64,000 nt of DNA from Limnospira sp. (GTDB lineage: Bacteria; Cyanobacteriota; Cyanobacteriia; Cyanobacteriales; Microcoleaceae), in contig JBNGCR010000004.1 in NCBI GenBank assembly GCA_050045915.1, positions 1,354 to 65,353 of the forward strand, read 5' to 3'. Positions 4,271 to 23,491 of this stretch are shown piece by piece. The translations under genes were made by a program, and so were the position numbers. The notes under the pieces are model-generated. The model made no database searches. It was not told where the DNA came from and saw only the letters and a program-made list of their open reading frames with translations. The first letter of the stretch is position 1. Every line of letters begins with the position of its first letter.

Positions 4271-4314
4271 ACCCCGCGATCGCCATTTTTTTTTGCACTC
4301 TCAATCGGTCGCCC

Positions 4315-4608
4315 ATGTTATCTAAAGATACTCTATTCGCCCTATCTTTATTTCCTTACCTCGGTTTCCTCTGGTTTCTGACCCGATCCGGAATGACTCC
4401 CAAACTCGCCCTGATCGGCTTTTACGGGACGTTGGTTTTTGTCGCCGTGACGATTCCGGCGGGAATTTACGCCAAGGTCGCCTACGGTGAAGCCCTGGCT
4501 AATGTCGATTGGCTGCACGGGGGGGCGGAAGTTTTTTTGACCCTATCCAATATTTTGATTGTTTTGGGATTCAGACAGGCGGTTTTGAACAAACAATCGC
4601 CGCAATAA
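4315..4608 (+). CDS. DUF3593 family membrane protein
   Basis: LFALSLFPYLGFLWFL...FVAVTIPAGIYA...LANVDWLHGGAE motifs. Start moved to the ATG at 4315 inside track ORF 4168..4608. Confidence 0.85.
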   Translation: MLSKDTLFALSLFPYLGFLWFLTRSGMTPKLALIGFYGTLVFVAVTIPAGIYAKVAYGEALANVDWLHGGAEVFLTLSNILIVLGFRQAVLNKQSPQ

Positions 4609-4636
4609 ATTGCCGTCGAACCGGACTATTTTTGCC

Positions 4637-5497: not shown

Positions 5498-5710
5498 TGC
5501 GATTGATAAAGATGGGCGATCGGATAACTGTAGCGGTCGGCTACAATGAATCAATTCTTTCGCCCCCAAACCCCCAATTCTGGGGGCTTATCCAGTTTTT
5601 TAACCGTACAACTTCCCAATCGTCGCATATGTATGTTGATTCCAAGCACCTGTGGAGGCAAGCGTCTCGGGTTGCCCTGGGTTGCCCGGATTTAAAATTC
5701 CGTTTCCATG

Positions 5711-5741
5711 AAAAAAGGGGAGGCTGTCCATTAACCTCCCC
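5711..5741 (-). terminator. Putative intrinsic terminator downstream of the DUF4149 gene
   Basis: Minus strand GGGGAGG-11 nt-CCTCCCC followed by TTTTTT, ~25 nt after the stop codon. Confidence 0.55.
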
Positions 5742-5766
5742 CCGGGTGATTTAAAGATGACTGAAT

Positions 5767-6282
5767 TCATCTCTGATCGGCGAAATGATTCTGATAACAC
5801 CAGGCGAAAATCGTACCCGCAGCGAAGAATTTCAGCGTTTCCAGACTCAGATAGCCGAAGTGCAGTTGATTCATCCCCGCCGGCACCGATTCCACCGGAT
5901 TAAACAGGTTCAGATGGGCTCCCAAGGCGCTCATTTGGGGGGTGAGACTGTAGGTGTAAAGCAGCGCGATCGCGAACAGAATAAAAGATAATGCCGTGAG
6001 GGTGCGAATGCGACTGCTGAATCCTTCGGGGAGCGTCATCCCCAAGATCATCATCCCCGTCAATCCCAGGGCTGCACACAGGATTTCAATATGATTAAAT
6101 GCGGAAAAAATGACCGAACCTGCGGGCGCAAAACTGGCTTCTTCCATCATTCCGGAAACGTACATTCCCGGCATGATCACGAAATCTAACAGCAGGCTGC
6201 CACCGAGCCAAAGTGCCATCGTGACCAGGACAAGGGTGAGCCAGCGGGATGGATTGTATTGAATTTTAGATATGGCTGACAT
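5767..6282 (-). CDS. DUF4149-family membrane protein
   Basis: Four hydrophobic segments; LWLGGSLLLDFVIMP and YSLTPQMSALG patterns. Confidence 0.7.
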   Translation of the reverse strand: MSAISKIQYNPSRWLTLVLVTMALWLGGSLLLDFVIMPGMYVSGMMEEASFAPAGSVIFSAFNHIEILCAALGLTGMMILGMTLPEGFSSRIRTLTALSFILFAIALLYTYSLTPQMSALGAHLNLFNPVESVPAGMNQLHFGYLSLETLKFFAAGTIFAWCYQNHFADQR

Positions 6283-6518
6283 GAATAATGCCTCTCAACT
6301 TTCGTCCCTTACGTTTTCAGTGTAGCGAAGATTTTGCCGGGAAAATATGAAGTATTTTTGCGATTTGGATGTCGGCAGTAATTGTTAAGAAATTTGTAGC
6401 GATCGGGGGGCGATCGCCCGCCAATTTTCGTGACTTGGGGACGATGGCAGAGATTTTTATGAATTTTTGTTAAAATTGCTGACGGAATATTTTGTCGTCG
6501 GTGTGAAGGCTGAGAAAC

Positions 6519-7196
6519 GTGAAAGCAGTAATTTTACTCTCCGGTGGACTCGACTCTTCCACCGCGCTCTATCAGGCGAAGGCCGATGGCTGCGAGTGCT
6601 ACGCGCTCTCCTTTGACTATCGGCAGCGCCACCAGCGAGAATTGGAAGCGGCGGCAGCAATTGCCAAGGCGGCGGCAGTGGCCGAGTACCAGGTCGTCCA
6701 GTTTGACCTGACGTGCTGGGGGGGTTCGGCTTTGACGGACAACCAGATCGACTTGCCAAGCGATCGCTCCGTAGCCGAGATGTCCCAGAGCATTCCGATC
6801 ACCTACGTTCCGGCCCGCAACACGATTTTTCTGAGTTTCGGCCTCGCCTACGCTGAGGCGATTCGCGCCGATCGCGTCTATATCGGGGTCAACGCTTTGG
6901 ACTACTCGGGCTATCCCGACTGTCGCCCTGATTATATCGCCGCCATGCAGGAAGTGTTCCGCCTGGGGACCAAGGAAGGGCGGGAAGGAAATGCGATCGC
7001 GATCGACACCCCCCTCATCCACCTCAAGAAAACGGAGATCATCCAATTGGGGAATGAGTTGGGCGTCCCCTGGGAACACACCTGGTCCTGTTACGCGGGT
7101 GAAGCGGAAGCCTGCGGTGTCTGCGATGCCTGTCGGTTGAGGCTGGCCGCGTTTGAAGCGTTGGGGTTGAGCGATCCGATTCCCTACAAATCGTGA
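6519..7196 (+). CDS. queC: 7-cyano-7-deazaguanine synthase
   Basis: LLSGGLDS, YVPARN, SGYPDCRP and the TWSCY...CGVCDAC zinc motif. Confidence 0.97.
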   Translation: MKAVILLSGGLDSSTALYQAKADGCECYALSFDYRQRHQRELEAAAAIAKAAAVAEYQVVQFDLTCWGGSALTDNQIDLPSDRSVAEMSQSIPITYVPARNTIFLSFGLAYAEAIRADRVYIGVNALDYSGYPDCRPDYIAAMQEVFRLGTKEGREGNAIAIDTPLIHLKKTEIIQLGNELGVPWEHTWSCYAGEAEACGVCDACRLRLAAFEALGLSDPIPYKS

Positions 7197-7348
7197 TGGC
7201 GGTCAGAATTGGCTGAAATTGTCGGGCTTTTAGTTGTCGGCGGTTTCCCAATTTTGCCCCTCGGAAACGATAGAATAAAAATAGTTGGTGCCCGGAATCT
7301 CCGGCAATTCCCTGTCGCGCAGTTCGGCGGTGTCAAGTTAACTGCCGT

Positions 7349-8665
7349 GTGACATCTCAATTCAGCGAATTTCTCCCAAATGTCGGTCTTATGGTTGAAA
7401 AATTTGGACAATCTGATCATCGTGATGCTTTGGAGGTTTGGTCTGAAGAGGCGACGATTCTGCATCGGCGAATTACCAATCTCAAGCAGCTTCTCGCCGA
7501 GGCGGAACGGGAGAATCGGGAGTTGCGATCGCAATTGCAGGCGAAAGAGCCAGTTCTAGGGGAAGCATCCTTAAAAACCGACATTCCCCCAGAATCGCAG
7601 TGGCAGGAAAGCGATCGCGCGGATATTGATAAGGTTGAGAATGAAGAGTCCGAATCTTCTGGGGGTGAAGAAACTGAGCCGGTTGACGATCTAGAAATTC
7701 AGGAGACGGAAAGCGATCGCACCGATGAGATTGAACCATCCGATCGTGGCGATGCCGGTCTGTCTGAAAACCGGGATAATTCCGGCGCGATCGGCAACGG
7801 AAAAAACGGCAGAGGGGATGTTTCGACCAACGGTTCCGCTAATGGAAAAAGCCTCGATCCGAATGCGATCGAACCCGTCCACAACGGTCGAGGAACCGCC
7901 ACTGCGATCGCACCTCCGAAACCCGAAATTGCCGCATCCGAGGAAGACGATCTCGACGAAATTCCCGACGAAGCCGAGATGTCCCTGTTCGATCATCTCG
8001 AAGAATTACGACAGCGCATTTTTTACTCATTAATTGCCGTTACCGGCGGCATTGTCCTTTGTTTCATCGCCGTCAAACCGATCGTTCAACTCTTAAAAAT
8101 TCCGGCCCAAGGCGTGAAAATGCTGCAACTTGCCCCCGGAGAATATTTCTTCGTCTCCCTGAAAGTTGCCGGATACAGCGGTTTGATCCTGTCGAGTCCA
8201 TTCATTATTTATCAAATCGTCCAATTTGTCCTTCCCGGACTCACCCGCCGCGAACGGCGAATTCTGGGGCCGATTTTCCTGGGTTCCACATTCCTATTTT
8301 TGATCGGTTTAATCTTTGCCTATGCCGCGATCGTCCCGGCCGCACTCAAATTCTTCATCGGCTACGGCGCGGAAGTCGTCGAACAACTTTGGTCGATCTC
8401 GGAATATTTTGAGTTTGTCCTGAAACTGCTATTCGTAACGGCGATCGCATTTCAGGTTCCCATCATTTTAATATTGTTGGGAATCCTGGGAATTGTGTCT
8501 TCCAAACAAATGTTCTCCGGTTGGCGATATGTGGTACTCGCAGCAGCCGTTCTAGGGGCAATTTTGACGCCTTCAACCGACCCGTTAACTCAAAGTCTCC
8601 TGGGGGGTGCGGTCGTCTTTTTATATTTCGGCGGCGTCGGGGTCGTGCGGCTGATGGGGAAATAG
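7349..8665 (+). CDS. tatC: Twin-arginine translocase TatC with a ~200-aa coiled-coil/acidic N-terminal extension
   Basis: The core begins at EMSLFDHLEELRQRIF (~7975), with LAPGEYFF, PGLTRRE and LTPSTDP motifs. The upstream part of the ORF is open and in frame from the GTG at 7349. Confidence 0.9.
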   Translation: MTSQFSEFLPNVGLMVEKFGQSDHRDALEVWSEEATILHRRITNLKQLLAEAERENRELRSQLQAKEPVLGEASLKTDIPPESQWQESDRADIDKVENEESESSGGEETEPVDDLEIQETESDRTDEIEPSDRGDAGLSENRDNSGAIGNGKNGRGDVSTNGSANGKSLDPNAIEPVHNGRGTATAIAPPKPEIAASEEDDLDEIPDEAEMSLFDHLEELRQRIFYSLIAVTGGIVLCFIAVKPIVQLLKIPAQGVKMLQLAPGEYFFVSLKVAGYSGLILSSPFIIYQIVQFVLPGLTRRERRILGPIFLGSTFLFLIGLIFAYAAIVPAALKFFIGYGAEVVEQLWSISEYFEFVLKLLFVTAIAFQVPIILILLGILGIVSSKQMFSGWRYVVLAAAVLGAILTPSTDPLTQSLLGGAVVFLYFGGVGVVRLMGK

Positions 8666-8673
8666 TTTTTGAT

Positions 8674-8700
8674 GGGCGATCGCAGAGGGTTGCCCCTACA
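8674..8700. repeat. Short REP-like palindrome (GGGCGA...TTGCCCCTACA)
   Basis: Imperfect hairpin ending in CCCCTACA just after tatC, resembling cyanobacterial REP-type repeats. Confidence 0.35.
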
Positions 8701-8852
8701 GTCAATCCTAGGGGGCGTTCCCCACCGTCACCGATGGAATTGACCGATTTTCTGAGGGGTTAAAGCCCAACAACAAATATGGACAATATGGGGGGGTTTC
8801 ATTCTCGTTCAAACCCACCTAAAAAAGATCGAATTTATCTCCCCTTATTAAG

Positions 8853-9022
8853 CAGGGCTGTTTCATTCTCGGTTCAAAATTGTCGGGGGCGACAGTGAAA
8901 ACCGTTGATGGGAGACAAGAGCAAGGGAATATCCGGTTAAAAACACCTTTTTATTCCGAAAAATCTCCCTCCGCTCCCTCTGCTCCCCTTGCCATTTTTC
9001 TGGGGAGAATGAAACGGCCGGG
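8853..9022. mobile_element. 170-bp MITE with ~18-bp imperfect terminal inverted repeats and a ~9-11-bp flanking duplication
   Basis: Left TIR CAGGGCTGTTTCATTCTC (8853-8870); right TIR GAGAATGAAACGGCCGGG (9005-9022). Flanks are CCCTTATTAAG (left) and CTCTTATTAAG (right). No coding capacity. Confidence 0.75.
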
Positions 9023-9054
9023 CTCTTATTAAGGGGATCTGGGGGGATCGATGC

Positions 9055-9396
9055 TTAAACCTGCACTTTCGGTTCGGAAGCCGGACGAATTTCGCTGCGA
9101 ACTTCGTAAAATGAAGTCATAGGTGCTTTGGCAAAAAGCGGAGTCATTTTGTCCAAAATAGCCTGGTAGGACTCATCTTGGTTGGCTTCCATGTCCTCGA
9201 TATTTTCCCAAAAAATGATCGCGATCCCGCGTTCGGTGCCGGGTTCTTGCAATAAGTAAGATCCCTTAAAACCTTTGGTATAGGTCGAAACGGCTTGTTG
9301 AAACAGTTCCCGAGCTTCTTCAAATTTGCCCGGTTTGAATTCGCCGATCGCGATGTAGGCATATTTGTGCCGAAGAAAATCAAAAAATTCAGACAT
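9055..9396 (-). CDS. Antibiotic biosynthesis monooxygenase (ABM)-like ferredoxin-fold protein
   Basis: GEFKPGKFEEA...GFKGSYLLQEPGTERGIAIIFWENIEDMEA pattern; 113 aa. Confidence 0.7.
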   Translation of the reverse strand: MSEFFDFLRHKYAYIAIGEFKPGKFEEARELFQQAVSTYTKGFKGSYLLQEPGTERGIAIIFWENIEDMEANQDESYQAILDKMTPLFAKAPMTSFYEVRSEIRPASEPKVQV

Positions 9397-9633
9397 AACT
9401 GACCACCCGTCATGCGTTTAGATAGTTGGATTGCCCGGAAGAGACAAACCCCCATTTTTTTCTATTGCTTCCCTTTGTTTCTCAGCCGATCTGATTGTTG
9501 GCTCGAATCGCAGACGCTGGGGGACAATCTCTGGCGAAGCGGATGCTAGGAATAAATGCTTACCACTTAATTCCTTTAAATCACCCTATCCCATTTGAGG
9601 ACAGAATGCAATCGGAGCGACGGATAATTTTTT

Positions 9634-10410
9634 TCAAAAGTGCCGAAGCTGAAGGTCGGCGTTGAAAAACTGCCGACAAATGCCGCCGGTTAACAGCCAA
9701 GTTGTCAGCAAATTGGCCAAAACTACGCCAAATAGAATCAAGATTTGATAAGAAACGGCATCTAAGGGTTCAATTCCGGCCAATAGCTGGCCGGTCAAAA
9801 TTCCCGGCAGGGTCACGGCCCCGGCGATCGCCATGGCGTTGAGGGTGGGGGTCAACCCGGCCCGGACCGCATCCCGGCGGTAGGAAGCAACGGCCCGTTC
9901 GGGAGTGGCCCCCAAACTGAGGTGGGTTTCGATTTCGATTTGGGAGGCGTTGAGGGTTTTGACCAACTGTTCCCCGGCCACCATCGCCGCGTTGAGACTG
10001 CCAGCCAAAAGCGCGGCTGCCACCGGAACCCAATATTGGGGGGAATAGATGGGATCGGGTCGGATGACGATCGCGACCAAATACAGCGAAATCGCCCCGG
10101 TACCGACCAGCAGGGACCCCCACACCCAAAAAAACAGCCGAGGAATTTTGCGGCCGATGCGGTTGCGGACGACCACCGCCACCAGGGAAATCATGGCCAA
10201 AATGAGGGCGATCGTTAACAAAGGGTGGATGCCGGCGGGGTCGAACACCACGGCGAAGACGTAGCCGACGACGGCCAACTGGGCGATCGCGCGGAGTCCC
10301 GACCCGGCCAACTCTCGGATCATCCCCAACCGCCAGCAGGCGGACAGGGCGATCGTCGCGGCGGCCAGTCCGAGTACCAGCAGCAAGTCTGTAAAATCTA
10401 AAGGAATCAA
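9634..10410 (-). CDS. fetB: UPF0014/FetB-type ABC transporter permease
   Basis: RAIAQLAVVGY, EIETHLSLGATP, GAVTLPGILTGQLLAG and AVSYQI motifs. Confidence 0.8.
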   Translation of the reverse strand: MIPLDFTDLLLVLGLAAATIALSACWRLGMIRELAGSGLRAIAQLAVVGYVFAVVFDPAGIHPLLTIALILAMISLVAVVVRNRIGRKIPRLFFWVWGSLLVGTGAISLYLVAIVIRPDPIYSPQYWVPVAAALLAGSLNAAMVAGEQLVKTLNASQIEIETHLSLGATPERAVASYRRDAVRAGLTPTLNAMAIAGAVTLPGILTGQLLAGIEPLDAVSYQILILFGVVLANLLTTWLLTGGICRQFFNADLQLRHF

Positions 10411-10452
10411 AATTCTGTTCGGCGACGAATTATCAATTTAATTTTAAGTGGT

Positions 10453-11604
10453 GTGAGCAGCGTGAATTCAATTCCCCCCCTCGACTTAACCCGACAGTAC
10501 GAAACCATCCGCGATCGCGTCAATACTGCCGTGCTGGACATTCTGGCTTCGGGACGCTACATCGGCGGGTCTGCCGTGGACTGTTTTGAGGAACGGTTCG
10601 CCGCCTATATCGGGGTCCCGGAAGCGGTGAGTTGCAACTCGGGGACCGATGCGTTATTTCTGGCGTTGCGGGCCTCGGACATCGGCCCGGGCGATCGCGT
10701 GATCACGACGGCCTTTTCATTTATCGCCACCTCGGAAGTGATAACCGCCGTGGGGGCGACTCCGGTATTTGTGGATATCGACCCCGAGACGTTCAATTTA
10801 GATCTCGACCAGGTGGAGGCGGCCGTCACCCCCGAAACCCGGGCGATCGTGCCGGTCCACTTATTCGGCCGGCCCGTGGATATGACCCGACTGATGGCGA
10901 TCGCGCGAAAACACAATTTGGTCGTCATCGAAGATTGTGCCCAGGCGACCGGGGCGACGTGGGAAGGTAAAAAAGTCGGTAGTTTCGGACATTTCGGCTG
11001 TTTCAGTTTCTTCCCGACCAAAAATTTGGGCGCCTGCGGGGACGGCGGTGCCGTGACGACCTCCGATCCGACCCTTGCCGAGAAAATCCAGGTGTTGAAA
11101 AATCACGGCCAGACCGGACGCTACAACTCGGAGGTGTTGGGGATCAACAGCCGGTTGGATGCGGTGCAGGCGGCGATTCTGACGATTAAACTGGACTATC
11201 TCGATCGCTGGAACGAGCGGAGGCGGGCGATCGCGACCCGTTACGGCCAATTGTTGGAAGCCGTCCCCGGCATCGTGCCCCCCCGGGACTGTGCGGGGGG
11301 CCGCAGCGTTTGGAACCAGTACACGATCCGGGTCGGGGGTGGCGATTCGGACTCGTCCCGGCGCGATCGCCTGCGGGAAGACCTGCAAAAACGGGGGGTG
11401 AGTACGATGGTTTACTACCCCATTCCCCTGCACCGGCAAGGGATACACCGGGACTTGGGTTATCAAACCGGACAACTCCCCGTTGCCGAACAAATCGGCG
11501 ATCGGGTGCTATCTTTGCCCCTGTTTCCAGAACTGTCCGAGGAACAGCAGGATCGCGTCATCTACAGTCTCAAAGATTGTCTCAAAGCGGTGGCGATCGG
11601 ATGA
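10453..11604 (+). CDS. DegT/DnrJ/EryC1/StrS-family sugar aminotransferase
   Basis: CNSGTDAL, VHLFG, IEDCAQA, FSFFPTKNLGACGDGG (PLP lysine) and NSRLD motifs. Confidence 0.93.
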   Translation: MSSVNSIPPLDLTRQYETIRDRVNTAVLDILASGRYIGGSAVDCFEERFAAYIGVPEAVSCNSGTDALFLALRASDIGPGDRVITTAFSFIATSEVITAVGATPVFVDIDPETFNLDLDQVEAAVTPETRAIVPVHLFGRPVDMTRLMAIARKHNLVVIEDCAQATGATWEGKKVGSFGHFGCFSFFPTKNLGACGDGGAVTTSDPTLAEKIQVLKNHGQTGRYNSEVLGINSRLDAVQAAILTIKLDYLDRWNERRRAIATRYGQLLEAVPGIVPPRDCAGGRSVWNQYTIRVGGGDSDSSRRDRLREDLQKRGVSTMVYYPIPLHRQGIHRDLGYQTGQLPVAEQIGDRVLSLPLFPELSEEQQDRVIYSLKDCLKAVAIG

Positions 11605-13492: not shown

Positions 13493-16400
13493 TTATGATG
13501 TCGGAGACTTTTCGGATGTCGAATTTTGCCAGAATTCGTAATCCTGTCGCAGTCGTGCGGGAAGCTGGGAGGGGTTTTGGATTTGGATTTGTTCGGGACG
13601 GTAATATAACATCGCCGCCATCAGGTAATGGATCGATCGCGGCACCTCCAAACCCCGCCGCAGGTAAGCCGCCAAGTTTTGCAGAAAATCCCATTCTTGT
13701 TGGGTTAATAATTCCTGTTGGAGGCGACTGTAAAGCAGCGATCGGTAGGCATCGCCCATGTCGCGATCGTAGGTTTTCTCTAGTTGTTCGTCCGGCAAAT
13801 TTAGCCAAAAATGCGCCATTTTCCACCGCAATTGTCGCAGTTCTGTCGCGATGCCGGCATCCGTCGGATCGATGTGAAACAGTTTCGTACAGCCGATCGC
13901 CCGATTGATAAATTGGGAATGGTCGAGTTGTATCGCTGCCGGTGAAAGTTCCTCGGCTATTTGGGGTTTCGGCTGCTGTTGGGCGGTGACAACCTGTTGA
14001 ATTTGAGCGATCGCTTCGGCATTTTCAAATATTCGTTGATAGTCGGGGTACAACCATCCCGGCAAGCGGTTCAAGGCATCCCTCACCAACATTTTACCGG
14101 GCTGACAGTACAGCATCACCACCATCAGGCAGTTGATAGAATTGGGTTGTTTCAATCCCGTCGCTGCCTTCGCCAGTTGGTTCACCAACACCTGTTCGGA
14201 GTCGGCGAGGGGTTCTTTCTGAATGCCGCGATTGAGAAGAATTTGATAACCTTTGCCGATGGGTTGTTGATAGAGAGTTTCGAGTTTTTCCGGCGGCTGA
14301 TTCAGCCAATATTCTGCCATCACCCGCCGGGTATGGCGCAATTTTTCCACCCCTTCCGCATTGGTCGGATCGAGATCGTATAAATTGACGCGATCCACCA
14401 ATTCAGCTAGAAATTGTTGGCGGACGGCGGGATTGTCTAACGCCACCGCCTCCTGCTGTCGCCGGCGGAGTTGGAACAGTTGGGCAAAAACGCCTCCCAT
14501 TTTGGTGGCGTAATCGCGACTGTCGAGAAATTCCGGATTTGCCGCCATTTTTTCGCGGATTTCTTGGCTTTTTTGCTGTCGCCACCCGCCATCAGTCGCC
14601 AACTGGACGGCGACATCGATGTAAGCTTGTTCGCTGGCGGGAATGGGTTCGTTGGGAAGCAGCGATCGCACCATTGCCGCCCCCATCCGCGATCGCAGCG
14701 TGTTCCCCTCCCACACCACTACCGGCAACCCCACTTCTAGGGGATCGACGAGGGAAGTTGTCCCGGCGTAGGGGAAAGAATCGAGGTAAATATCCCCCAA
14801 CTGCAACACGGCTTTGACTTGGGCTCGGTTGGGAAGTGCCTTGAGAATTTTCAACCGTTTCGGATCGATATTGTAGCGGTTGAGGAGGGCTTGCATTTGC
14901 TGTTGAAATGATACCTCCGGATATTGTTGCGTCCAACTCGCCCCAAACGGCAATAAGACTAAGACGGAATGGGGAACCGCTGCTAAAATTTTGACCCAAG
15001 TTTCTCGCAATTCGGGAATCAGTTTGTATAAATTCGCGCTGGAAATCAATGCGATCGCGTCGTCGGGTATTCCCAACTGTTGGCGGGTGGGAGGCGCGGC
15101 TGTTTTTTGCGGTTCGACGGTGTAGCTGAAACAGCAACCCGCCCCCGGAATTGTGACCCGTTTTTCCCGATACTGCTCGCTTCCGTCTTTCGGCAATTCC
15201 ATCAATTCCCCGGCGATGTAAAAGTCGATATTTTTGAATCCGGTGGTGACGGGAGAATTGAAACAGGTAAGTTGCACCCGCGCCAGCCGGTGACAGGCGA
15301 TCAGGGTGATTTCGTGGGTGACGGCGGTGATGTTGGTTCCCACCAATAAAATATCCAATTCATCCCCGCGAATGGTGTTGACTTGTTGCATCAGTGAACC
15401 GGACAGGCGGACGAATTTATCGGCGCGATTGCGGCTGTATTTTTCCACCGAATTACCGTCCGTTTGCAGGGCGTACAGCACTACTTCAAACTGTCCCCGA
15501 TCCAAATATTCAAAGGCGGGGAGGGTGGCGAATGTCTCCGTCATTGCCCCGAAATGCTTGTTCAAAATGCCGACGCGAATTCTTTGGCGATCGGGCGATC
15601 GCTGAGGGATTTCCCAGTCAATTTGAGCGCCCCGACTCCTCAGCGCAAACTCGATTATATCTCCCCGCAAGGTGTAAATTTCTTTGAGATTTTCGGTATT
15701 AAAATACAAGCTGATAACGCGACAATGAGTCGTGAAAAACCAGGCGATATTTTTCCAATTTTGAGAATCTGGGTTCGCGAAAATTGAGCGGTGTAAATAC
15801 CGCAGAAATTCCAGGAAATACTGGCAGTAGCGATCCGCTTCTCCCGTTTCCTGGAAAAATTCGGGATTGGAGAGGAGAAAATCCAAATAGTCCCCCGCCA
15901 ACCATTGGGGAAATGTCAGTTTTTCGTAGGCAATTGAGAGTTGATGGGGCCAGAAGTACAGCATCGCCGCGATCGCTGTTCTGTGGGAATAGTTGTGGGG
16001 GATCGCCCTCTTTATGGTTTGACTGTGGTGGATTTCCGAGTCGGTTTTAACTTCGTGTTTGATGCCACTTTTTAACAGCAATTTGTGCGCCTTTCCCGCC
16101 GCTCCGGTGTAATAGTTTGGGAGGGTTTGGGGGTCGCAATTTAACCAAAATTCGGCTAACTCCTGTCGCAACTGTCGCAGTTTATCCAAAAGGCTGCGAT
16201 CGCCACTTCCCCGGTTGTAGCGGTTCGCTAAATCCGTCACTTCCACCAAAAATTGGTCGGGATTTGATACAATATTGGCAGTGGAGCGAACGGGGTGGAT
16301 GACGATTCCCCGCTCCTTCAAAATCTCCGCCGCCTGACGCACTTCCTCCGCCGTGTATAAGTTGGGGTGAAGGGCGATAATTTTGGCTTTTTGGACGGCG

Positions 16401-19345
16401 AGGGTTTGGCGATCGGCGAGTAAGTTTTGCAGCCGCGAACCGTCGCCATATTGGCGGTAATACAAATAGGGTTTGGGGAGGCGATATCCCCGCCAGCCAC
16501 TTTCGTAAGCCGCCACCCAGAATTCCCAGTCTTCGAGTCCCGCCTCCATCTCCGTTTTGAAACCGCCGATGCGATCGCAAATCGATCGCCGAAATAGGGA
16601 CGTGATGCTGGCTTGATTGGACCGCAGCAGCCGACTCGGATCGAAATCCCCGTCGGTTTTGACTCCCTGCTGAGTTCCGAAATATTCGATATCGGTATAG
16701 ACGAACCCGATGTCCGGTTTTTGCTGCAAAATTTCCAGGGTTTCCGCCAGAAAATTGGGGTGCAACTTGTCGTCCGCATCCAAAAATAACAGGTAATTTC
16801 CCCGCGCCTGACTCAAGCCTAGATTTCGCGCCGCGACGACACCTTTATTGTCTTGATTGATGAGTTTTAAAGCGCGATCGCGGTGCAGTTCGATCAGCAA
16901 TTCAGCCACAACGGGTGTCCCGTCAGAACTGCCGTCATTGACGATGATACATTCCCAGTCGGCGATCGTTTGCGCCAAAAGACTATCGACGGCTTCCCTG
17001 AGATAATTCGCCTGATTGTAGCAGGGAATGATAATCGAAATTTGGGGAGTTGTGGGAGTGCCTTCACGCATAGAATCGAGTTCGCTTGGGGAAACGGGAA
17101 CCGGAACGGAAGTTGTCGGTTGGATGCCGCGCTGGGAAATGCCGTATTCGTGCCAAATCTGGCGCACTTCCTGAACCATTGCCGGCGATGAGTTTTCTAA
17201 ACCCTGGGGATGTTCGTAGTATAACCCAAAAACCTGCGGTAATTTCACAATTTTTTCCGTTTTGCCAACCCGCAGCCAAAATTCGTAATCCCCGGCGACT
17301 TGAAATTCCCCACGAAAACAACCATACTTTTCATGAAGGGATTTCCGCCACATCGGCTGCGGTCCTAAAATGCAGCGCCGTTCCAGTTCTTCGTAACTAA
17401 ATTCCGGCCAATCCCAGCGTCGGTTTGCTTGAGTATTATCAAAGGTTTCGTTTTCATTTTGGGTGATGAGTTGATCGCCATAGACGATCGCGACATTCTG
17501 ATTTTGATCCAAATAATCCGCCATCACTGCCAACGCATCTTTTCGGTGGCGATCATCGGTGTTGGCGTTGGTGATATAATCTCCTTTCGCTAATTTTATG
17601 GCTCGATTCCAAGCCGCGTAGAGGGTTTCCCTTGGTTCGGTGCGGTGATAAATAATGTGGGGATATTGGCTTTGGAAATCTGACGCGATCGCCCCCTCTT
17701 TTTCCTCCGAGGCACTGTCGATAATAATAATTTCCAATTCCCCGTTTTTATACAAAGTTTGACTCGTCAAATCGGCCAAGCATCCCCGCAGGAATTTTTC
17801 GGAATTGTAAGTCGAAACAATCGCAGAAACTTTCGGTTTCACTGGTAAATCATCCTGCAACTCCAGCCAATTTGGAATCGCGTCTCGGGCGATTTTTAAG
17901 GCTTGTTTCGCCAATGCGCGATCGTCAACTTTTTCGGCAGCTTGACTCAAATATCCCGCCACCCGTCCGCCGTCGCACCCCAATTGATAGGCGGCTTTAA
18001 ATTCCGCGATCGCCTCCAGATATCGCCCCTGACGCTGCAAAATTAGCCCCGTCCACAACCGTAAATAACCGTCACGAGGATAATAATTTCGGTAGTGAAA
18101 TAAACCCCCTCCTCCAGGATTACACAGTCCCGGAGAAGCCACCGCAATTTGGCGATCGCTTTTTAACTGTTCTGATAAATCATCAGATGTTAAACTCACT
18201 TTAAATTGAGGATCGGCATCTCCCAAACTCTCCACAAACAATGCTGCACCAGTTTTCCGGTTTCCCGGGTTTAAATAGTGTTTCCGTTTAGGAAACTCCA
18301 TTAACTGACGATAAGTTTGATTGATTTTTTCAATCGAAACCTCGGGATCGAAATGCTGTCTCGCGTATTCTCGCGCATTATTTCCCAGCCGCATCCGTTC
18401 CTCGGGATTGCGATATAAATACGCGATCGCCTCCCGATATTCCCGTTCGCTTTGCACCACCAAACCCGTCCGATCATGAATGACTAAATGCTTCACCCCG
18501 CCGTGGGGAAATACCACCGGAGGAACCCCCGCATACATCGCCTCTTGCAGACTTTTCTCGCTGGTTGCGTAGGTATCCTCAACCAGAGGATAGCCGAACA
18601 CGTCCAAAATTTCCAAAACCGATCGGATGTCTTCGACATACCCCCGAAACTCGAATTTTTCGGCGACTCCCAAATGATTCGCCTGCTGTTTGAGATGGTT
18701 TTCAATCCCGCCGCCGCAGACAATAAAACGGATGTCGGGAACTTCGACTCCCGCACTCATGGGGACATAATTTTGATGGAGTTTGGAGAAATCCACCGTC
18801 CCGATATACCCGACATTAAAAGTAGAATGGGGGCGGGGTTTAAACGATGCCAAACGACTAAAATCCGCAATTCCCGGAACCACACCGATCCGGTTATTTT
18901 GCAGCAAATCGGGGCGAGATTGGATGGCGGGTAAATCCAACGTGCGAGGCGTGGTTGCCAACAGAATATCCGAGTAATCGGTCAATTTTTTTGTGACGAC
19001 GTGGGGGGAGCGATCGCCCACCACTTTTAACCACACCAGCGACCGCATTTCCGGCAAATCTAACTGTAGAAATTCATAGAGTTCCGGACTGTTCCAAAAG
19101 TGAAAATGGACGATATCTGCCCATTCTATCTCACTTGTGATTGGTTCCAAATTGGGCTGTTGAATGACTTGCATTCCCGCCACTTCCGCCAATTTTACCG
19201 CCTCCGGCTGGGCGGGAGTCAGGGAAATTGTGCGATGATTTTGACCTCGTTTTTTGATGTGCGAATCTTTCGCGATCGCAACGACAGAACGCGACGCACC
19301 ACCCAATGAGAATCCTTGTAAAATATGTAAAATATTCATGTTCAT
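13493..19345 (-). CDS. Giant multidomain glycosyltransferase: GT4 - TPR-like - GT2 - GT2 - helical module - GT41 (SPINDLY/HMW1C-like) - two helical modules
   Basis: GT4: LDVFGYPL...SLQEAMYAGVPPV. GT2 domain 1: VSAIVSTYN...TNANTDD. GT2 domain 2: ISIIIPCYN...LFLDADD. GT41: RIRVGIL...SPVTTGFKNIDF...DIYLDSFPYAGTTSLVDPLEVGLPVV. ATG at 19345 preferred; the track ORF extends to 19387. Confidence 0.88.
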   Translation of the reverse strand: MNMNILHILQGFSLGGASRSVVAIAKDSHIKKRGQNHRTISLTPAQPEAVKLAEVAGMQVIQQPNLEPITSEIEWADIVHFHFWNSPELYEFLQLDLPEMRSLVWLKVVGDRSPHVVTKKLTDYSDILLATTPRTLDLPAIQSRPDLLQNNRIGVVPGIADFSRLASFKPRPHSTFNVGYIGTVDFSKLHQNYVPMSAGVEVPDIRFIVCGGGIENHLKQQANHLGVAEKFEFRGYVEDIRSVLEILDVFGYPLVEDTYATSEKSLQEAMYAGVPPVVFPHGGVKHLVIHDRTGLVVQSEREYREAIAYLYRNPEERMRLGNNAREYARQHFDPEVSIEKINQTYRQLMEFPKRKHYLNPGNRKTGAALFVESLGDADPQFKVSLTSDDLSEQLKSDRQIAVASPGLCNPGGGGLFHYRNYYPRDGYLRLWTGLILQRQGRYLEAIAEFKAAYQLGCDGGRVAGYLSQAAEKVDDRALAKQALKIARDAIPNWLELQDDLPVKPKVSAIVSTYNSEKFLRGCLADLTSQTLYKNGELEIIIIDSASEEKEGAIASDFQSQYPHIIYHRTEPRETLYAAWNRAIKLAKGDYITNANTDDRHRKDALAVMADYLDQNQNVAIVYGDQLITQNENETFDNTQANRRWDWPEFSYEELERRCILGPQPMWRKSLHEKYGCFRGEFQVAGDYEFWLRVGKTEKIVKLPQVFGLYYEHPQGLENSSPAMVQEVRQIWHEYGISQRGIQPTTSVPVPVSPSELDSMREGTPTTPQISIIIPCYNQANYLREAVDSLLAQTIADWECIIVNDGSSDGTPVVAELLIELHRDRALKLINQDNKGVVAARNLGLSQARGNYLLFLDADDKLHPNFLAETLEILQQKPDIGFVYTDIEYFGTQQGVKTDGDFDPSRLLRSNQASITSLFRRSICDRIGGFKTEMEAGLEDWEFWVAAYESGWRGYRLPKPYLYYRQYGDGSRLQNLLADRQTLAVQKAKIIALHPNLYTAEEVRQAAEILKERGIVIHPVRSTANIVSNPDQFLVEVTDLANRYNRGSGDRSLLDKLRQLRQELAEFWLNCDPQTLPNYYTGAAGKAHKLLLKSGIKHEVKTDSEIHHSQTIKRAIPHNYSHRTAIAAMLYFWPHQLSIAYEKLTFPQWLAGDYLDFLLSNPEFFQETGEADRYCQYFLEFLRYLHRSIFANPDSQNWKNIAWFFTTHCRVISLYFNTENLKEIYTLRGDIIEFALRSRGAQIDWEIPQRSPDRQRIRVGILNKHFGAMTETFATLPAFEYLDRGQFEVVLYALQTDGNSVEKYSRNRADKFVRLSGSLMQQVNTIRGDELDILLVGTNITAVTHEITLIACHRLARVQLTCFNSPVTTGFKNIDFYIAGELMELPKDGSEQYREKRVTIPGAGCCFSYTVEPQKTAAPPTRQQLGIPDDAIALISSANLYKLIPELRETWVKILAAVPHSVLVLLPFGASWTQQYPEVSFQQQMQALLNRYNIDPKRLKILKALPNRAQVKAVLQLGDIYLDSFPYAGTTSLVDPLEVGLPVVVWEGNTLRSRMGAAMVRSLLPNEPIPASEQAYIDVAVQLATDGGWRQQKSQEIREKMAANPEFLDSRDYATKMGGVFAQLFQLRRRQQEAVALDNPAVRQQFLAELVDRVNLYDLDPTNAEGVEKLRHTRRVMAEYWLNQPPEKLETLYQQPIGKGYQILLNRGIQKEPLADSEQVLVNQLAKAATGLKQPNSINCLMVVMLYCQPGKMLVRDALNRLPGWLYPDYQRIFENAEAIAQIQQVVTAQQQPKPQIAEELSPAAIQLDHSQFINRAIGCTKLFHIDPTDAGIATELRQLRWKMAHFWLNLPDEQLEKTYDRDMGDAYRSLLYSRLQQELLTQQEWDFLQNLAAYLRRGLEVPRSIHYLMAAMLYYRPEQIQIQNPSQLPARLRQDYEFWQNSTSEKSPTS

Positions 19346-19349
19346 CACA

Positions 19350-19703
19350 TTAATTTGACCGTTTTGCAGTTTTAATAGTTGATACAAGCATGGCGATAAT
19401 TTCTTTGCAGTCAGATTCTATGCTGGAAAACATTCTGTCGTCTATATAGTTTGTATCTTTGAGTAGAGAAATCCAATATTCAGTTTCGTTCGCTTCTTTG
19501 AGGGAGACGCTCATTTTATTGATAAAATCCGCCTTGCTTTGTCCAAATTCAGCTTCCCGAATCAATGCCCCAATCGCCGTACCACTTCTGAGAACCTGTC
19601 GGCTCAAAATAAATTCTTTTTTCTGTTTTTGTAGATATTGAGACAAGCGAACAATCCGAATTACAAACGCATAACTTTTATCTTTGAGAGGATTCTCCTT
19701 CAT
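19350..19703 (-). CDS. Four-helix-bundle protein (TIGR02436 / 23S rRNA IVP-like)
   Basis: KSYAFVIRIVRL...LSRQVLRSGTAIGALIREAEFGQSKADFINKMSVSLKEANETEYWISLL is the family signature. AT-rich. Confidence 0.9.
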   Translation of the reverse strand: MKENPLKDKSYAFVIRIVRLSQYLQKQKKEFILSRQVLRSGTAIGALIREAEFGQSKADFINKMSVSLKEANETEYWISLLKDTNYIDDRMFSSIESDCKEIIAMLVSTIKTAKRSN

Positions 19704-19715
19704 GATTCTCAATTG

Positions 19716-19750
19716 TTCATTTTTTATTTTTCATTTTTCATTTTTCATTT
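19716..19750. repeat. Heptamer tandem repeat (TTCATTT)n upstream of the four-helix-bundle gene
   Basis: About 4-5 imperfect copies read directly. Confidence 0.75.
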
Positions 19751-21395
19751 ATATTCTATAGTGGTTCAGTTTGTTGATTTGTTCTATGAAATTATTTTGT
19801 TTCAAAAAGTAGCTTGTATAGGCAATTTCTACCGTGCGATCGCAATCGTGAACGAACACATCCGTATTGCCGGACTGCATCGCCAATTGGGATGCGGTAT
19901 AAATGCTTTTCATCCGCCCCGGTTTGTCCGGCGTGTAGCCGGCGGGGGCATCCACTAAAATCCAATCCCAGGATGTCTCGTAAATCCATTGGGGTAAATC
20001 CAAAATCAGGCAATTCTCGCCGCGATCGAACCTCATCAACAGTTCCGCCCAATCTTTTCGTTTTGTGCCGTATTCGACATGATACGCCTCTAAATTCGCG
20101 CAATTCTGTTGAACCTGCGTCAGCCACTCCTGGCTATCTTCCAAAAAAATAGTTTTGCCCTCGCGGTTGATCTCCATCCACAACGCACTATCTTTTCCGA
20201 CTCCAAACACCAGCAAATTTCCCGGTGCCTTCTCGGAAATGCGATCGCCGATATAGCGGTATTCCTCGACCGTCATTTGACCGGGATTTCCCGCGACTAA
20301 GTTATCAATCATTGGATAGTAATCCGGGATATTCTCAACCCCATCGTCACCGACAATCCACTCCCACCGCAAATGTTCCGGCAACGTCCAATTCACCGCC
20401 GGATCGGGCTGGTGGGCGATCGGTTCCACATTGCCCCGCCAAGCGACTCCCATAATTTGCTTGGTTTGATAAATACCGACATTCCAACCGCGATCGCGGA
20501 AATAATTCCAACCTGCAAATACGTCCGGAGATACCAGATCGTGAAATAATATCAACGCATCGTCTGCCGCCACCCGTTCGCAAATTTGGGCATCCTGCAA
20601 AGGCCCGGGTGCCTCGTGATTTCCGTCGATAAAAATGAGCGGCCAGCGGCGGTTTTCTTGCGCCGCCACTTCCTGAACTTTCGCCGGACTGTAACCCGGA
20701 ATTAACTGCACTTTATCCAAAACTTGGGCCGACTGCAAAGAACCCCGGACGCGATCGCCGAAAATCGGGTTCGCCAGCCCCGGATCGACGACATCGAGAA
20801 GCACCCCACCCAATGCCAGGTGACAGGTTGACCACCCCAACCAACAGCCGATTTCCAACGCCCGTTGACCTTTAAATTTCAAGGCCGTATTATATAAAAT
20901 ATGGGCTTCATCTCGGGTGATAAATCCGACCGTCGGAAACTGTTTGTCCACATAGCGATTGTGGGGAATTTCCCGGCGGTGATACTGCCATTTTGAACTG
21001 AGATTATCGACCGTTAAATTGGGAAAATGGCGATCGGCTTTAATTTTCGCGAAGTGGGGGCAGACGTAATCCCCCGCCGGAAACGTCACGTCCCCGGCCG
21101 ATTCCCCGAAAATTTGCGATAAACTCTGCCGAGCGATCGCACACCCGGAGTCCAGTTCCACAGCCAAACGATAAGCCCGGATCGCCGCATCCGCCTTGTG
21201 TTGGGCTTGCAACGCCTGACCGAGGGTCTGATACGCTTCGCCGTAACCGGGTTCAATTTTGATCGCCTGATGACAAATAGCGATCGCCGATTCCAACTTT
21301 CCCGCAGCCAGATCCGCTTTCGCCCGGGCATTAAGTTGCGAAACCGCCGCATCTGCCGGAGAGCGATCGATATCGCGATAGACAGGATTCCCCAT
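19749..21395 (-). CDS. TPR + class I SAM methyltransferase (Methyltransf_24-like) + DUF579/GXM-like polysaccharide O-methyltransferase domain
   Basis: N-terminal TPR (AICHQAIKIEPGYGEAYQTLGQAL). Methyltransferase motifs ALEIGCWLGWST and IFIDGNH...ILFHD. C-terminal NLLVFGVGKDSALW, WDWILVDAPAGY..PGRMKSIYTA and TDVFVHDCDR. Confidence 0.8.
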   Translation of the reverse strand: MGNPVYRDIDRSPADAAVSQLNARAKADLAAGKLESAIAICHQAIKIEPGYGEAYQTLGQALQAQHKADAAIRAYRLAVELDSGCAIARQSLSQIFGESAGDVTFPAGDYVCPHFAKIKADRHFPNLTVDNLSSKWQYHRREIPHNRYVDKQFPTVGFITRDEAHILYNTALKFKGQRALEIGCWLGWSTCHLALGGVLLDVVDPGLANPIFGDRVRGSLQSAQVLDKVQLIPGYSPAKVQEVAAQENRRWPLIFIDGNHEAPGPLQDAQICERVAADDALILFHDLVSPDVFAGWNYFRDRGWNVGIYQTKQIMGVAWRGNVEPIAHQPDPAVNWTLPEHLRWEWIVGDDGVENIPDYYPMIDNLVAGNPGQMTVEEYRYIGDRISEKAPGNLLVFGVGKDSALWMEINREGKTIFLEDSQEWLTQVQQNCANLEAYHVEYGTKRKDWAELLMRFDRGENCLILDLPQWIYETSWDWILVDAPAGYTPDKPGRMKSIYTASQLAMQSGNTDVFVHDCDRTVEIAYTSYFLKQNNFIEQINKLNHYRI

Positions 21396-21480
21396 GAGTC
21401 ACTCTATATTAAGGTCGGATGTCGAGGCTCAAGCTTCGGTCAGCAAAGGAAATAATAATACATCATCAACCGCCCCTGTG

Positions 21481-21540
21481 CTCCCCCTGCTCCCCCTGCT
21501 CCCCCTGCTCCCCCTGCTCCCCCTGCTCCCCCTGCTCCCC
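21481..21540. repeat. 9-mer tandem repeat (CTCCCCCTG)x6+
   Basis: Six perfect copies plus a partial one, in the divergent intergenic region before ftsH. Confidence 0.95.

Positions 21541-21652: not shown

Positions 21653-23491
<1,839 letters not shown>

What the first reader, a model, noticed from the sequence alone, without database searches (positions are those of the whole stretch)
19749..20310. Plant-type DUF579 (GXM/IRX15/AGM) polysaccharide O-methyltransferase domain in a cyanobacterial protein
Seen: the last ~185 aa carry NLLVFGVGKDSALW..INREGKTIFLEDSQEW, WDWILVDAPAGYTPDKPGRMKSIYTA and TDVFVHDCDR. Knowledge, from memory: plant glucuronoxylan 4-O-methyltransferases (GXM1-3) and arabinogalactan methyltransferases have the same blocks in the same order (NFLVFGLGHDSLMW, WDLIMVDAPTGY..PGRMxAIYTA, TDVFVHDV). 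Inference: this is a bacterial member of a family characterised mainly in plant cell-wall synthesis. It is fused behind a TPR and a second, unrelated methyltransferase, and may O-methylate uronic acids on a cyanobacterial glycan.
Basis: partly seen in the sequence, partly recalled or inferred. Interest (0 to 1): 0.8.

Follow-up and report, generated by a model that had tools for sequence, protein, structure and literature searches.

The report
Cyanobacterial double sugar methyltransferase, GXM-like domain
A cyanobacterial gene encodes a soluble protein with two different methyltransferase domains, one from the family that methylates plant cell-wall sugars, next to a giant sugar-polymer-building enzyme; the family assignment is solid and already in public annotation, but no bacterial member has had its function tested.

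Summary
Window 19749-21395 (-) encodes a 548-aa protein. Its last ~185 aa match Pfam IRX15/IRX15L/GXM (formerly DUF579) end to end (E=2.5e-48) and NCBIfam TIGR01627 above its cutoff. The quoted motifs are present and are invariant from bacteria to plants.

The architecture is TPR, then a COMT-like Methyltransf_24 module, then the DUF579 domain. The protein has no signal peptide or membrane anchor, so it is cytoplasmic, unlike the plant Golgi enzymes. It heads a same-strand gene pair with a 1,949-aa four-module glycosyltransferase (GT4-GT2-GT2-GT41). The arrangement ftsH | DUF579 protein | giant GT is syntenic in Arthrospira, Okeania, Dapis and Oscillatoria acuminata.

"Plant-type" overstates it. 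At least 219 bacterial species carry the domain, and this copy is closer to other bacterial copies (43%) than to plant ones (37%). A rough tree gives no support for a cyanobacteria-plus-plant grouping.

Most likely function: a bifunctional SAM-dependent O-methyltransferase decorating the glycan made by the neighbouring GT. The glycan link is supported by context. Uronic-acid 4-O specificity is untested.

The domain is already annotated publicly, and was listed for Arthrospira in 2010. No bacterial member has been characterised. It is a new member of a known kind, of moderate interest.

The parts
19749..21395 (-). Target gene: 548-aa TPR / Methyltransf_24 / DUF579(GXM-like) protein, soluble and cytoplasmic
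   Evidence: ORF; domains. Maximum 19-residue Kyte-Doolittle score is 1.39 and the N-terminus is not hydrophobic. Orthologues of 547-548 aa at 95% and 72% identity.
21108..21356 (-). TPR region (aa ~14-96, five helices)
   Evidence: TPR_2/TPR_19/TPR_1 hits. Matches to consensus-TPR and OGT TPR chains in the PDB. AF2 helices 14-96.
20361..21098 (-). Conserved cyanobacterial O-methyltransferase module (aa 100-345); the Pfam Methyltransf_24 core is aa 180-286 (nt 20538-20858)
   Evidence: PF13578 E=3e-11. It is 60-64% identical to many cyanobacterial proteins, with mean column identity 70%. Foldseek matches COMT, Rv0187 and MeT1 6g7d. The profile hits PaMTH1 (4ymg) and MeT1.
19752..20303 (-). DUF579 / IRX15-IRX15L-GXM domain (aa 365-548; Pfam match aa 378-546 = nt 19758-20264)
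   Evidence: PF21729 E=2.5e-48 over the full profile length. TIGR01627 above cutoff. AF2 pLDDT 96.7 with a class I Rossmann MTase fold. Invariant residues shared with plant GXMs.
19712..19750 (.). ATTTTTC x5.6 tandem repeat filling the gap between the target stop and the next gene
   Evidence: TRF. No convincing intrinsic terminator in this gap.
19350..19712 (-). Four-helix-bundle gene (23S rRNA IVP family / TIGR02436) inserted between the methyltransferase and the glycosyltransferase
   Evidence: PF05635 E=1e-26 and TIGR02436 E=4e-30. Absent from the orthologous Arthrospira/Limnospira loci.
13493..19342 (-). Giant 1,949-aa multi-module glycosyltransferase: GT4 (aa ~215-363), GT2 (~517-648), GT2 (~781-976), GT41-like (~1433-1630), plus three unannotated ~115-aa repeats. 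Presumed partner of the methyltransferase.
   Evidence: Pfam and NCBIfam hits. Orthologous to the Arthrospira 2,568-aa protein at 48-73% identity. Repeats shown.
21653..23491 (+). Divergent ftsH, the conserved left border of the syntenic locus
   Evidence: The translation has FtsH hallmarks. In O. acuminata the neighbour carries FtsH Pfam families. A divergent 612-613-aa ORF lies in the same position in the Arthrospira, Okeania and Dapis loci.

Best explanation
The gene encodes a soluble, cytoplasmic, bifunctional SAM-dependent glycan O-methyltransferase. It has two catalytic domains of the class I Rossmann fold: a COMT/CCoAOMT-like Methyltransf_24 module and a DUF579/GXM-like domain. Each is proposed to add a methyl group to a different hydroxyl, or a different sugar, of the oligo- or polysaccharide assembled by the adjacent four-module glycosyltransferase (GT4-GT2-GT2-GT41). 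The N-terminal TPR is proposed to dock the enzyme onto that synthase or its carrier. By analogy with the plant enzymes, the DUF579 domain would act on a sugar already built into the glycan, not on the nucleotide sugar. It probably uses a divalent cation held by the invariant Asp of VDAP and the His-Asp of VHD. Shown: domain identities, fold, residue conservation, lack of membrane anchor, and conserved gene neighbourhood and fusions. Inferred: catalytic activity, glycan substrate, metal use, TPR docking, co-transcription. Unknown: which sugar and which position. Candidates are 4-O of a terminal glucuronic acid, as in plants, or the O-methyl rhamnose and xylose known from Arthrospira polysaccharide.
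For: Family membership: PF21729 E=2.5e-48 over the full profile, and TIGR01627 above cutoff. Fold: AF2 pLDDT 96.7 and pTM 0.93. Foldseek finds only SAM methyltransferases, including the cation-dependent O-MT-like TrmR (TMq 0.64) and a putative CCoAOMT. Catalytic competence: residues invariant across 120 bacterial homologues, and still invariant when plant GXMs are added, include FGxG..(D)S (motif I), E55 after strand 2, D118 in VDAP, PGRM 128-131, H152-D153, R156 and E159. Middle domain: Foldseek matches COMT, Rv0187 and the mycobacterial sugar O-MT MeT1; profile matches to PaMTH1 and MeT1. Glycan link: the gene is followed by a giant multi-GT here, in Limnospira, in Arthrospira at 48-73% identity, and in Okeania, Dapis, Capilliphycus and O. 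acuminata. DUF579 is covalently fused to GT4 in Lyngbya and Okeania, and to a TOD1/MUCI70 GT-like domain in Albibeggiatoa. In 63 non-cyanobacterial loci the commonest flanking family is GT4, at 15 of 120 neighbours. Coupling of the two MT domains: Methyltransf_24 and DUF579 occur fused in both orders in different cyanobacteria. Cytoplasmic location: no hydrophobic segment. Plant precedent: recombinant DUF579 proteins made in E. coli methylate GlcA on xylo-oligosaccharides with SAM and CoCl2, but do not methylate UDP-GlcA (PMC4827005). AGM1/2, only 38-42% identical to GXMs, keep GlcA 4-O specificity on another polymer (PMC6508755).
Against: No biochemical or genetic data exist for any bacterial member. 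No polysaccharide export or polymerase genes (wzm/wzt, wza/wzc, wzx/wzy) lie in the 64-kb window, so the pathway and final location of the product are unknown. A GT41-like module could mean protein glycosylation rather than polysaccharide synthesis. The plant IRX15 clade of the same family shows no methyltransferase activity (PMC4827005), so membership alone does not prove catalysis. The inter-domain arrangement in the full-length model is uncertain (pTM 0.56). Co-transcription was not tested, and a four-helix-bundle gene is inserted between the two genes in this genome.
Confidence: 0.65

Rival explanations
1. One reading: the DUF579 domain is a glucuronic-acid 4-O-methyltransferase, as in plant GXM and AGM, acting on uronic acid residues of a cyanobacterial glycan.
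For: All characterised active family members methylate O-4 of terminal GlcA. This holds between clades only 38-42% identical (PMC6508755), and the cyanobacterial domain is 38-42% identical to plant GXMs. Arthrospira polysaccharides contain uronic acids (PMC11339812).
Against: The methyl sugars reported from Arthrospira calcium spirulan are 3-O-Me-Rha, 2,3-di-O-Me-Rha and 3-O-Me-Xyl, not Me-GlcA (PMC11339812). GXMT1 orthologues exist in chlorophytes that make no xylan (PMC5902652). Other DUF579 members have been proposed as Rha methyltransferases in bryophytes (bioRxiv 2025.03.14.643249). No UDP-glucose dehydrogenase or other uronic-acid gene was found in the window.
Confidence: 0.25
2. Chain-terminating cap: the methyltransferase methylates the non-reducing terminal sugar to stop polymerisation and mark the chain for export, like WbdD in ABC-transporter-dependent O-antigen synthesis. 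The TPR would tether it to the polymerase.
For: Plant family members act on terminal residues at O-4, a position otherwise open to extension. Multi-module giant GTs are typical of ABC-transporter-dependent pathways (general knowledge). An ABC_tran-DUF579 fusion exists in an Anaerolineales MAG, and ABC-2/ABC_tran genes flank DUF579 in a few loci.
Against: No wzm/wzt or any ABC-2 exporter lies near the gene in this window or in the cyanobacterial loci examined. The protein has no kinase or coiled-coil ruler. Cyanobacterial loci carry up to four or five methyltransferase domains per locus, which suggests extensive rather than terminal methylation.
Confidence: 0.12
3. Non-catalytic scaffold: the DUF579 domain has lost activity, as proposed for IRX15/IRX15L, and only organises the glycan-synthesis complex.
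For: IRX15-type proteins show no methyltransferase activity (PMC4827005). A second, probably active, methyltransferase is present in the same polypeptide.
Against: Every residue invariant across bacterial and plant GXM homologues is kept, including glycine-rich motif I, the acidic residue after strand 2, and the D...HD cluster. The top plant hits are named GXMs, one from a cluster that includes the Selaginella 'glucuronoxylan methyltransferase'.
Confidence: 0.05
4. Non-glycan substrate: one or both domains methylate a protein, lipid or small molecule.
For: The middle domain's structural neighbours are mostly catechol and small-molecule O-methyltransferases. The TPR and GT41-like modules are also typical of protein-modifying systems.
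Against: There is consistent adjacency or fusion to glycosyltransferases across phyla. The only known activities of the DUF579 family are on polysaccharides.
Confidence: 0.08

Closest known systems
Plant glucuronoxylan 4-O-methyltransferases GXM1-3/GXMT1 and arabinogalactan methyltransferases AGM1/2 (DUF579; Pfam PF21729, formerly PF04669 Polysacc_synt_4)
   Same: Same Pfam and TIGRFAM family, matched over the full profile length. Identity is 38-42%. The conserved blocks are the same and in the same order: FGxGxDS, FLE, WDxIxVDAPxG, PGRM, VHDxxR. The predicted fold is a class I SAM methyltransferase.
   Different: The plant enzymes are type II Golgi membrane proteins with an N-terminal anchor, a Cys-containing insertion and C-terminal Cys residues. 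The cyanobacterial domain lacks all of these. It is cytoplasmic and fused to a TPR and a second methyltransferase. The acceptor sugar is unknown.
Stand-alone bacterial TIGR01627/DUF579 proteins (~190-220 aa) of Gemmatimonadota, Chlamydiota, Flavobacteriaceae, Myxococcota and Thermoactinomyces
   Same: Same domain at 42-50% identity. They are closer to the window protein than plant members are. They often lie beside GT4 glycosyltransferases.
   Different: They are single-domain. None has been characterised.
Cation-dependent class I O-methyltransferases (COMT/CCoAOMT family), including the mycobacterial sugar O-methyltransferase MeT1 (PDB 6g7d)
   Same: The middle Methyltransf_24 module matches these by fold and weakly by profile. 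The D...HD-type pattern at the ends of strands 4 and 5 is present in both domains.
   Different: Identity is only ~15-23%. The module carries a ~80-aa conserved N-terminal extension specific to cyanobacteria.
WbdD-type O-antigen chain terminators
   Same: A methyltransferase associated with a multi-module cytoplasmic polymerase, plus a protein-interaction region.
   Different: No ABC exporter in the locus, no kinase domain and no coiled coil. There is no sequence relationship.

Membership tests
IRX15/IRX15L/GXM (DUF579; PF21729, TIGR01627) | Significant full-length match to the family profile, above the curated cutoff | tested here: met
   PF21729: 164.6 bits against 27.8, profile positions 2-189 of 189. 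TIGR01627: 161 bits against 149.85.
IRX15/IRX15L/GXM (DUF579; PF21729, TIGR01627) | Conserved sequence blocks shared with biochemically named plant GXMs | tested here: met
   Alignment with Selaginella GXM1 and Canna GXM3-like. Invariant residues: F33, G34, G36, S39, N46, G49, T51, F53, L54, W60, W112, D118, G122, P128-M131, D148, H152, D153, R156, V158, E159.
IRX15/IRX15L/GXM (DUF579; PF21729, TIGR01627) | Class I (Rossmann) SAM-methyltransferase fold | tested here: met
   AF2 pLDDT 96.7 with alternating strand/helix topology. All significant Foldseek PDB hits are SAM methyltransferases. No family member has a solved structure.
IRX15/IRX15L/GXM (DUF579; PF21729, TIGR01627) | SAM-dependent 4-O-methylation of glucuronic acid on a polysaccharide, Co2+-stimulated (GXM/AGM clades) | not testable with these tools
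   Needs an enzyme assay. The candidate metal and SAM ligands are conserved.
IRX15/IRX15L/GXM (DUF579; PF21729, TIGR01627) | Type II membrane topology and Golgi-lumenal location (a feature of the plant subfamily, not of the whole family) | tested here: not met
   No hydrophobic segment. The plant N-terminal anchor and Cys-rich insertion are absent.
Methyltransf_24 / cation-dependent O-methyltransferase-like (PF13578) | Profile match above cutoff and a COMT-like fold | tested here: met
   44.5 bits against 26.3. Foldseek matches COMT, Rv0187 and MeT1 at E~1e-7 with TMt 0.56-0.66.
WbdD-like chain terminator of ABC-transporter-dependent glycan synthesis | Locus contains the wzm/wzt ABC-2 exporter | tested here: not met
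   No ABC-2 or ABC_tran genes in the window, nor in the O. acuminata, Limnospira or P0010 loci. In the other cyanobacterial loci only the genes next to the DUF579 gene were scanned.

The most novel reading that the evidence does not exclude
The conserved ftsH-adjacent pair (DUF579 methyltransferase plus giant multi-GT) could be the biosynthetic core of the heavily O-methylated rhamnose/xylose/uronic-acid polysaccharide of Arthrospira-like cyanobacteria (spirulan-type). In that case the DUF579 domain would methylate a neutral sugar such as Rha O-3 rather than GlcA O-4. That would reveal a new acceptor specificity for the family. It would also point to the still unknown 3-O-methyl-rhamnose methyltransferases of bryophyte and fern arabinogalactan proteins.
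Probability: 0.1. Interest if true: 0.65.

Novelty: new member of a known kind. Interest (0 to 1): 0.4.

Why it matters
No DUF579/GXM protein has a solved structure, and the plant enzymes are membrane-anchored Golgi proteins. A soluble bacterial homologue at ~40% identity, predicted with very high confidence, would be a practical route to the first structure and mechanism of this cell-wall methyltransferase family. It could also be a candidate biocatalyst for methylating polysaccharides.

For cyanobacteria, the conserved methyltransferase/giant-GT locus is a concrete, testable candidate for the origin of the O-methyl sugars long known in Arthrospira polysaccharides, whose genes are unassigned.

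The broad but patchy bacterial distribution also shows that the family is not a plant invention. On the rough tree built here it did not reach plants specifically from cyanobacteria.

Tried and rejected
1. A plastid or cyanobacterial origin for the plant family. In an NJ tree of 91 domains with 100 bootstraps, plants/eukaryotes were monophyletic (100) and cyanobacteria formed a clade only weakly (31). A cyanobacteria+plant bipartition appeared in 1 of 100. Rejected at this resolution; an ML analysis is still needed.

2. A WbdD-like terminator. No ABC exporter is present in the window or in the fully annotated cyanobacterial loci. Kept only as a low-probability rival.

3. The profile search of the PDB with the DUF579 alignment gave Photorhabdus lectins (E=2e-4). 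This is a short 'vFGvGtDxalW' blade motif over ~25 residues and is spurious.

4. Testing whether the two methyltransferase domains are duplicates. hhalign gave probability 9.7% and E=0.003. They are not detectably related by sequence, though topologically equivalent motifs align.

5. Looking for the source organism or expression data. Only metagenomes hold partial matches (at most 23% of words), with one metatranscriptome at 5%. I did not pursue this.

6. An exact look-up of the window protein in the assembly collection returned nothing on record.

7. Literature searches for a characterised bacterial DUF579 or TIGR01627 protein found none.

Caveats. Neighbour genes were called by a simple greedy-ORF rule, so the neighbour census is approximate. 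The genome scan used three peptide patterns, so 219 species is a lower bound.
Full report
OBSERVATION. The finding's span (19749-20310) is the 3' third of a 548-codon ORF on the minus strand, 19749..21395, with an ATG start. All four quoted peptide strings are in its translation. Pfam scores the last 170 residues (aa 378-546) against PF21729 IRX15_IRX15L_GXM at E=2.5e-48. The match covers profile positions 2-189 of 189. NCBIfam TIGR01627 ('A_thal_3515') scores 161 bits, above its 149.85-bit cutoff. The same scan confirms a TPR region (aa ~14-96) and a second methyltransferase domain, PF13578 Methyltransf_24 (aa 180-286, E=3e-11, above cutoff).

ORGANISM AND LOCUS. The window is cyanobacterial: the HIP1 octamer GCGATCGC occurs 109 times in 64 kb. 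The nearest named orthologues are from Limnospira/Arthrospira at 72% identity, with a 95% match in an unnamed assembly. The exact protein is not on record.

The gene is the first of a same-strand series:
- the target (21395 to 19749);
- a 37-nt gap made of an ATTTTTC repeat, with no convincing terminator;
- a 120-aa four-helix-bundle gene of the '23S rRNA IVP' family (19712 to 19350);
- within 10 nt of its stop, a 1,949-aa protein (19342 to 13493).

That large protein carries GT4, two GT2 modules and a GT41-like module, plus three copies of an unannotated ~115-aa repeat. Upstream and divergent lies ftsH. The rest of the window is housekeeping: leuA, groEL, glgB, ftsI-like, cobB, tatC, queC. 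It holds no polysaccharide export genes.

CONSERVATION OF THE LOCUS. In Limnospira and Arthrospira the orthologous methyltransferase is followed, 12-52 nt later, by a 2,557-2,568-aa GT/MT protein. That protein is 48-73% identical to the window's giant GT. In Oscillatoria acuminata PCC 6304 a Methyltransf_24-DUF579 protein lies close to ftsH, about 3 kb away with three small genes between. It is followed by a GT4/TPR protein, two Methyltransf_21 proteins and two GT41 proteins. In Arthrospira, Okeania and Dapis a 612-613-aa divergent ORF in the ftsH position lies next to the DUF579 gene. In most of these loci a large GT protein follows, often with one to three Methyltransf_11 domains.

A close relative (P0010, 84% identical in the DUF579 domain) has TPR-DUF579 without the Methyltransf_24 module. 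There the giant GT carries a Methyltransf_21 instead. The constant elements are therefore the DUF579 domain and a multi-module GT, with a TPR in most cases. The second methyltransferase is interchangeable. Methyltransf_24 and DUF579 are fused in both orders in different cyanobacteria, and DUF579 is fused directly to GT4 in Lyngbya and Okeania.

THE DOMAIN ITSELF. An AlphaFold2 model built from 120 homologues is very confident (pLDDT 96.7, pTM 0.93). It has the alternating strand/helix layout of class I methyltransferases. Foldseek against the PDB returns only SAM methyltransferases. Examples are 3cvo (E=7e-6), TrmR (TMq 0.64) and a putative CCoAOMT. No hit exceeds ~17% identity. Sequence-profile search finds no solved family member either.

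Across the 120 bacterial homologues the invariant residues are L31, F33, G34, G36, D38, N46, G49, F53, E55, W60, D118, P120, R130, S133, H152, D153 and R156. When named plant GXMs are added, FGxG..S, D118, G122, PGRM, H152-D153, R156 and V158-E159 remain invariant. In class I methyltransferases the glycine-rich loop after strand 1 and the acidic residue after strand 2 bind SAM. In the COMT family, acidic residues at the ends of strands 4 and 5 bind the metal. This is established knowledge of the fold; the mapping onto this domain is my inference. The pattern argues that the domain is catalytically competent rather than an inactive scaffold.

The protein has no hydrophobic segment. It also lacks the N-terminal anchor, the Cys-containing insertion and the C-terminal Cys of plant members. 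It must therefore work in the cytoplasm.

THE MIDDLE DOMAIN. Residues 100-345 form a module that is 60-64% identical to many cyanobacterial proteins, including those of Nostocales. Mean column identity over 37 sequences is 70%. The module occurs alone (~320 aa) or fused to TylF-like, CmcI-like, GT4, GT2 or DUF579 domains. In the full-length model (pLDDT 86, pTM 0.56) the best PDB matches are catechol/CCoA-type cation-dependent O-methyltransferases, Rv0187 and MeT1. MeT1 is the sugar O-methyltransferase of mycobacterial methylmannose polysaccharide (profile matches).

That is right at the sequence level (hhalign probability 9.7%). Both domains nevertheless share the same fold and a similar D...HD motif pattern.

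DISTRIBUTION AND PHYLOGENY. The DUF579 domain is not rare in bacteria. An exhaustive search of 1.84 billion representatives finds 1275 clusters at E<=1e-3. A pattern scan of GTDB species representatives finds at least 219 species. These include Gemmatimonadota, Chlamydiota, Flavobacteriaceae, Myxococcota, Thermoactinomyces, Beggiatoa-like Gammaproteobacteria and, among cyanobacteria, only filamentous Oscillatoriales-type genera. Most bacterial copies are stand-alone proteins of ~190-220 aa. JGI already names some 'glucuronoxylan 4-O-methyltransferase', and NCBI uses 'TIGR01627 domain-containing protein'.

In a rough NJ tree of 91 domains the plant/eukaryote sequences are monophyletic (100/100). 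The cyanobacterial ones group only weakly (31/100). A cyanobacteria+plant bipartition is essentially never recovered (1/100). Mean identities are 43% cyanobacteria-to-other-bacteria and 37% cyanobacteria-to-plants. 'Plant-type' is therefore a historical label, not a phylogenetic one.

Among 120 genes flanking the domain in 63 non-cyanobacterial loci, GT4 glycosyltransferases are the commonest family (15). Others include PLOD-GT, GT2, TOD1/MUCI70, sulfotransferase and ABC-2 exporter genes. Fusions to an ABC ATPase and to a TOD1/MUCI70 domain also exist.

FUNCTION. Together these results support a bifunctional glycan O-methyltransferase serving the neighbouring assembly-line glycosyltransferase. 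The plant precedent is relevant on three points. Recombinant DUF579 proteins made in E. coli are active with SAM and CoCl2. They methylate GlcA already attached to an oligosaccharide and do not methylate UDP-GlcA. An IRX15-type paralogue is inactive (PMC4827005). AGM1/2 keep GlcA 4-O specificity at 38-42% identity to GXMs (PMC6508755), which is about the distance of the cyanobacterial domain from plant GXMs.

Several facts point the other way. The O-methyl sugars documented in Arthrospira calcium spirulan are 3-O-methylrhamnose, 2,3-di-O-methylrhamnose and 3-O-methylxylose (PMC11339812). GXMT1 orthologues occur in algae without xylan (PMC5902652). Other DUF579 members have been suggested as rhamnose methyltransferases in bryophytes. 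I therefore commit to 'glycan O-methyltransferase, partner of the giant GT' at ~0.65. I put the specific GlcA 4-O reading at ~0.25. A chain-capping role, a scaffold role and a non-glycan substrate are less likely rivals.

NOVELTY. The domain assignment is already in public annotation. The presence of DUF579 in Arthrospira platensis was listed in 2010 as unique among 38 cyanobacterial genomes (PMC2853384). I found no paper characterising any bacterial member.

New from this analysis:
- the conserved ftsH | DUF579-MT | giant-GT synteny;
- the recurrent, order-independent pairing with Methyltransf_24;
- the cytoplasmic topology;
- the size of the bacterial branch;
- the lack of support for a specific cyanobacteria-plant link.

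This is a new member of a known kind. Its main value is as a tractable soluble model for a structurally unsolved plant cell-wall enzyme family. It is also a candidate for the unassigned methyl-sugar genes of spirulina-type cyanobacteria.

Noticed in passing
window 21479-21540: Perfect tandem repeat TGCTCCCCC x6.9 (100% matches) in the intergenic region between the target gene start and the divergent ftsH. Its function is unknown; it might affect the shared promoter region.
   Followed up: partly
window 19712-19750: ATTTTTC x5.6 tandem repeat makes up the whole 37-nt spacer between the target stop codon and the four-helix-bundle gene.
   Followed up: partly
window 19350-19712 (-): A four-helix-bundle gene ('23S rRNA intervening sequence protein' family, TIGR02436) is inserted between the methyltransferase and the giant GT, in an AT-rich stretch. 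It is absent from the orthologous Arthrospira and Limnospira loci. Its stop lies within 10 nt of the GT start.
   Followed up: partly
window 15938-16285, 14093-14455, 13583-13945 (-): The giant glycosyltransferase contains three copies of an unannotated ~115-aa helical repeat (consensus around LRxLRxxxAxxWLxxPxxxLxxxY...G..Y..LL), 30-38% identical to one another (E 1e-12 to 1e-20). The repeats are conserved in the Arthrospira orthologue. They could be docking sites for TPR partners.
   Followed up: partly
window 20361-21098 (-), and proteins P0021-P0120: The ~245-aa Methyltransf_24 module is exceptionally conserved across cyanobacteria: 60-64% identity to Nostocales proteins and 70% mean column identity. 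It is fused combinatorially to TylF-like, CmcI-like, GT4, GT2 or DUF579 domains. No function is known.
   Followed up: partly
L034:5757-7043; L038:7962-9218 and L041: Unusual fusions of the DUF579 domain occur in other bacteria: ABC-transporter ATPase + DUF579 (Anaerolineales MAG) and DUF579 + TOD1/MUCI70 glycosyltransferase-like domain (Candidatus Albibeggiatoa). PLOD-type GT genes flank the domain in three loci. These partners are largely 'eukaryote-like' glycan enzymes.
   Followed up: no
L058, L065, L069, L070, L073, L077-L080, L084: In a Flavobacteriaceae clade, the stand-alone DUF579 gene is consistently preceded by a ~403-aa Mur-ligase-family (FolC/Mur-like) gene.
   Followed up: no
L085:963-1919 and 3576-10529: A close relative (84% identity in the DUF579 domain) has TPR-DUF579 without the Methyltransf_24 module. 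Its 2,317-aa giant GT instead carries an FkbM-type Methyltransf_21. This is module swapping over a short evolutionary distance.
   Followed up: partly
window 61217-62536 (-) and 62000-64000: A C-5 cytosine DNA methyltransferase gene sits at the edge of a low-GC (43%) segment at the end of the window. It may be part of a restriction-modification or mobile island.
   Followed up: no
window 50521-52860 (+): A 779-aa ORF with no NCBIfam match at E<=1e-8.
   Followed up: no
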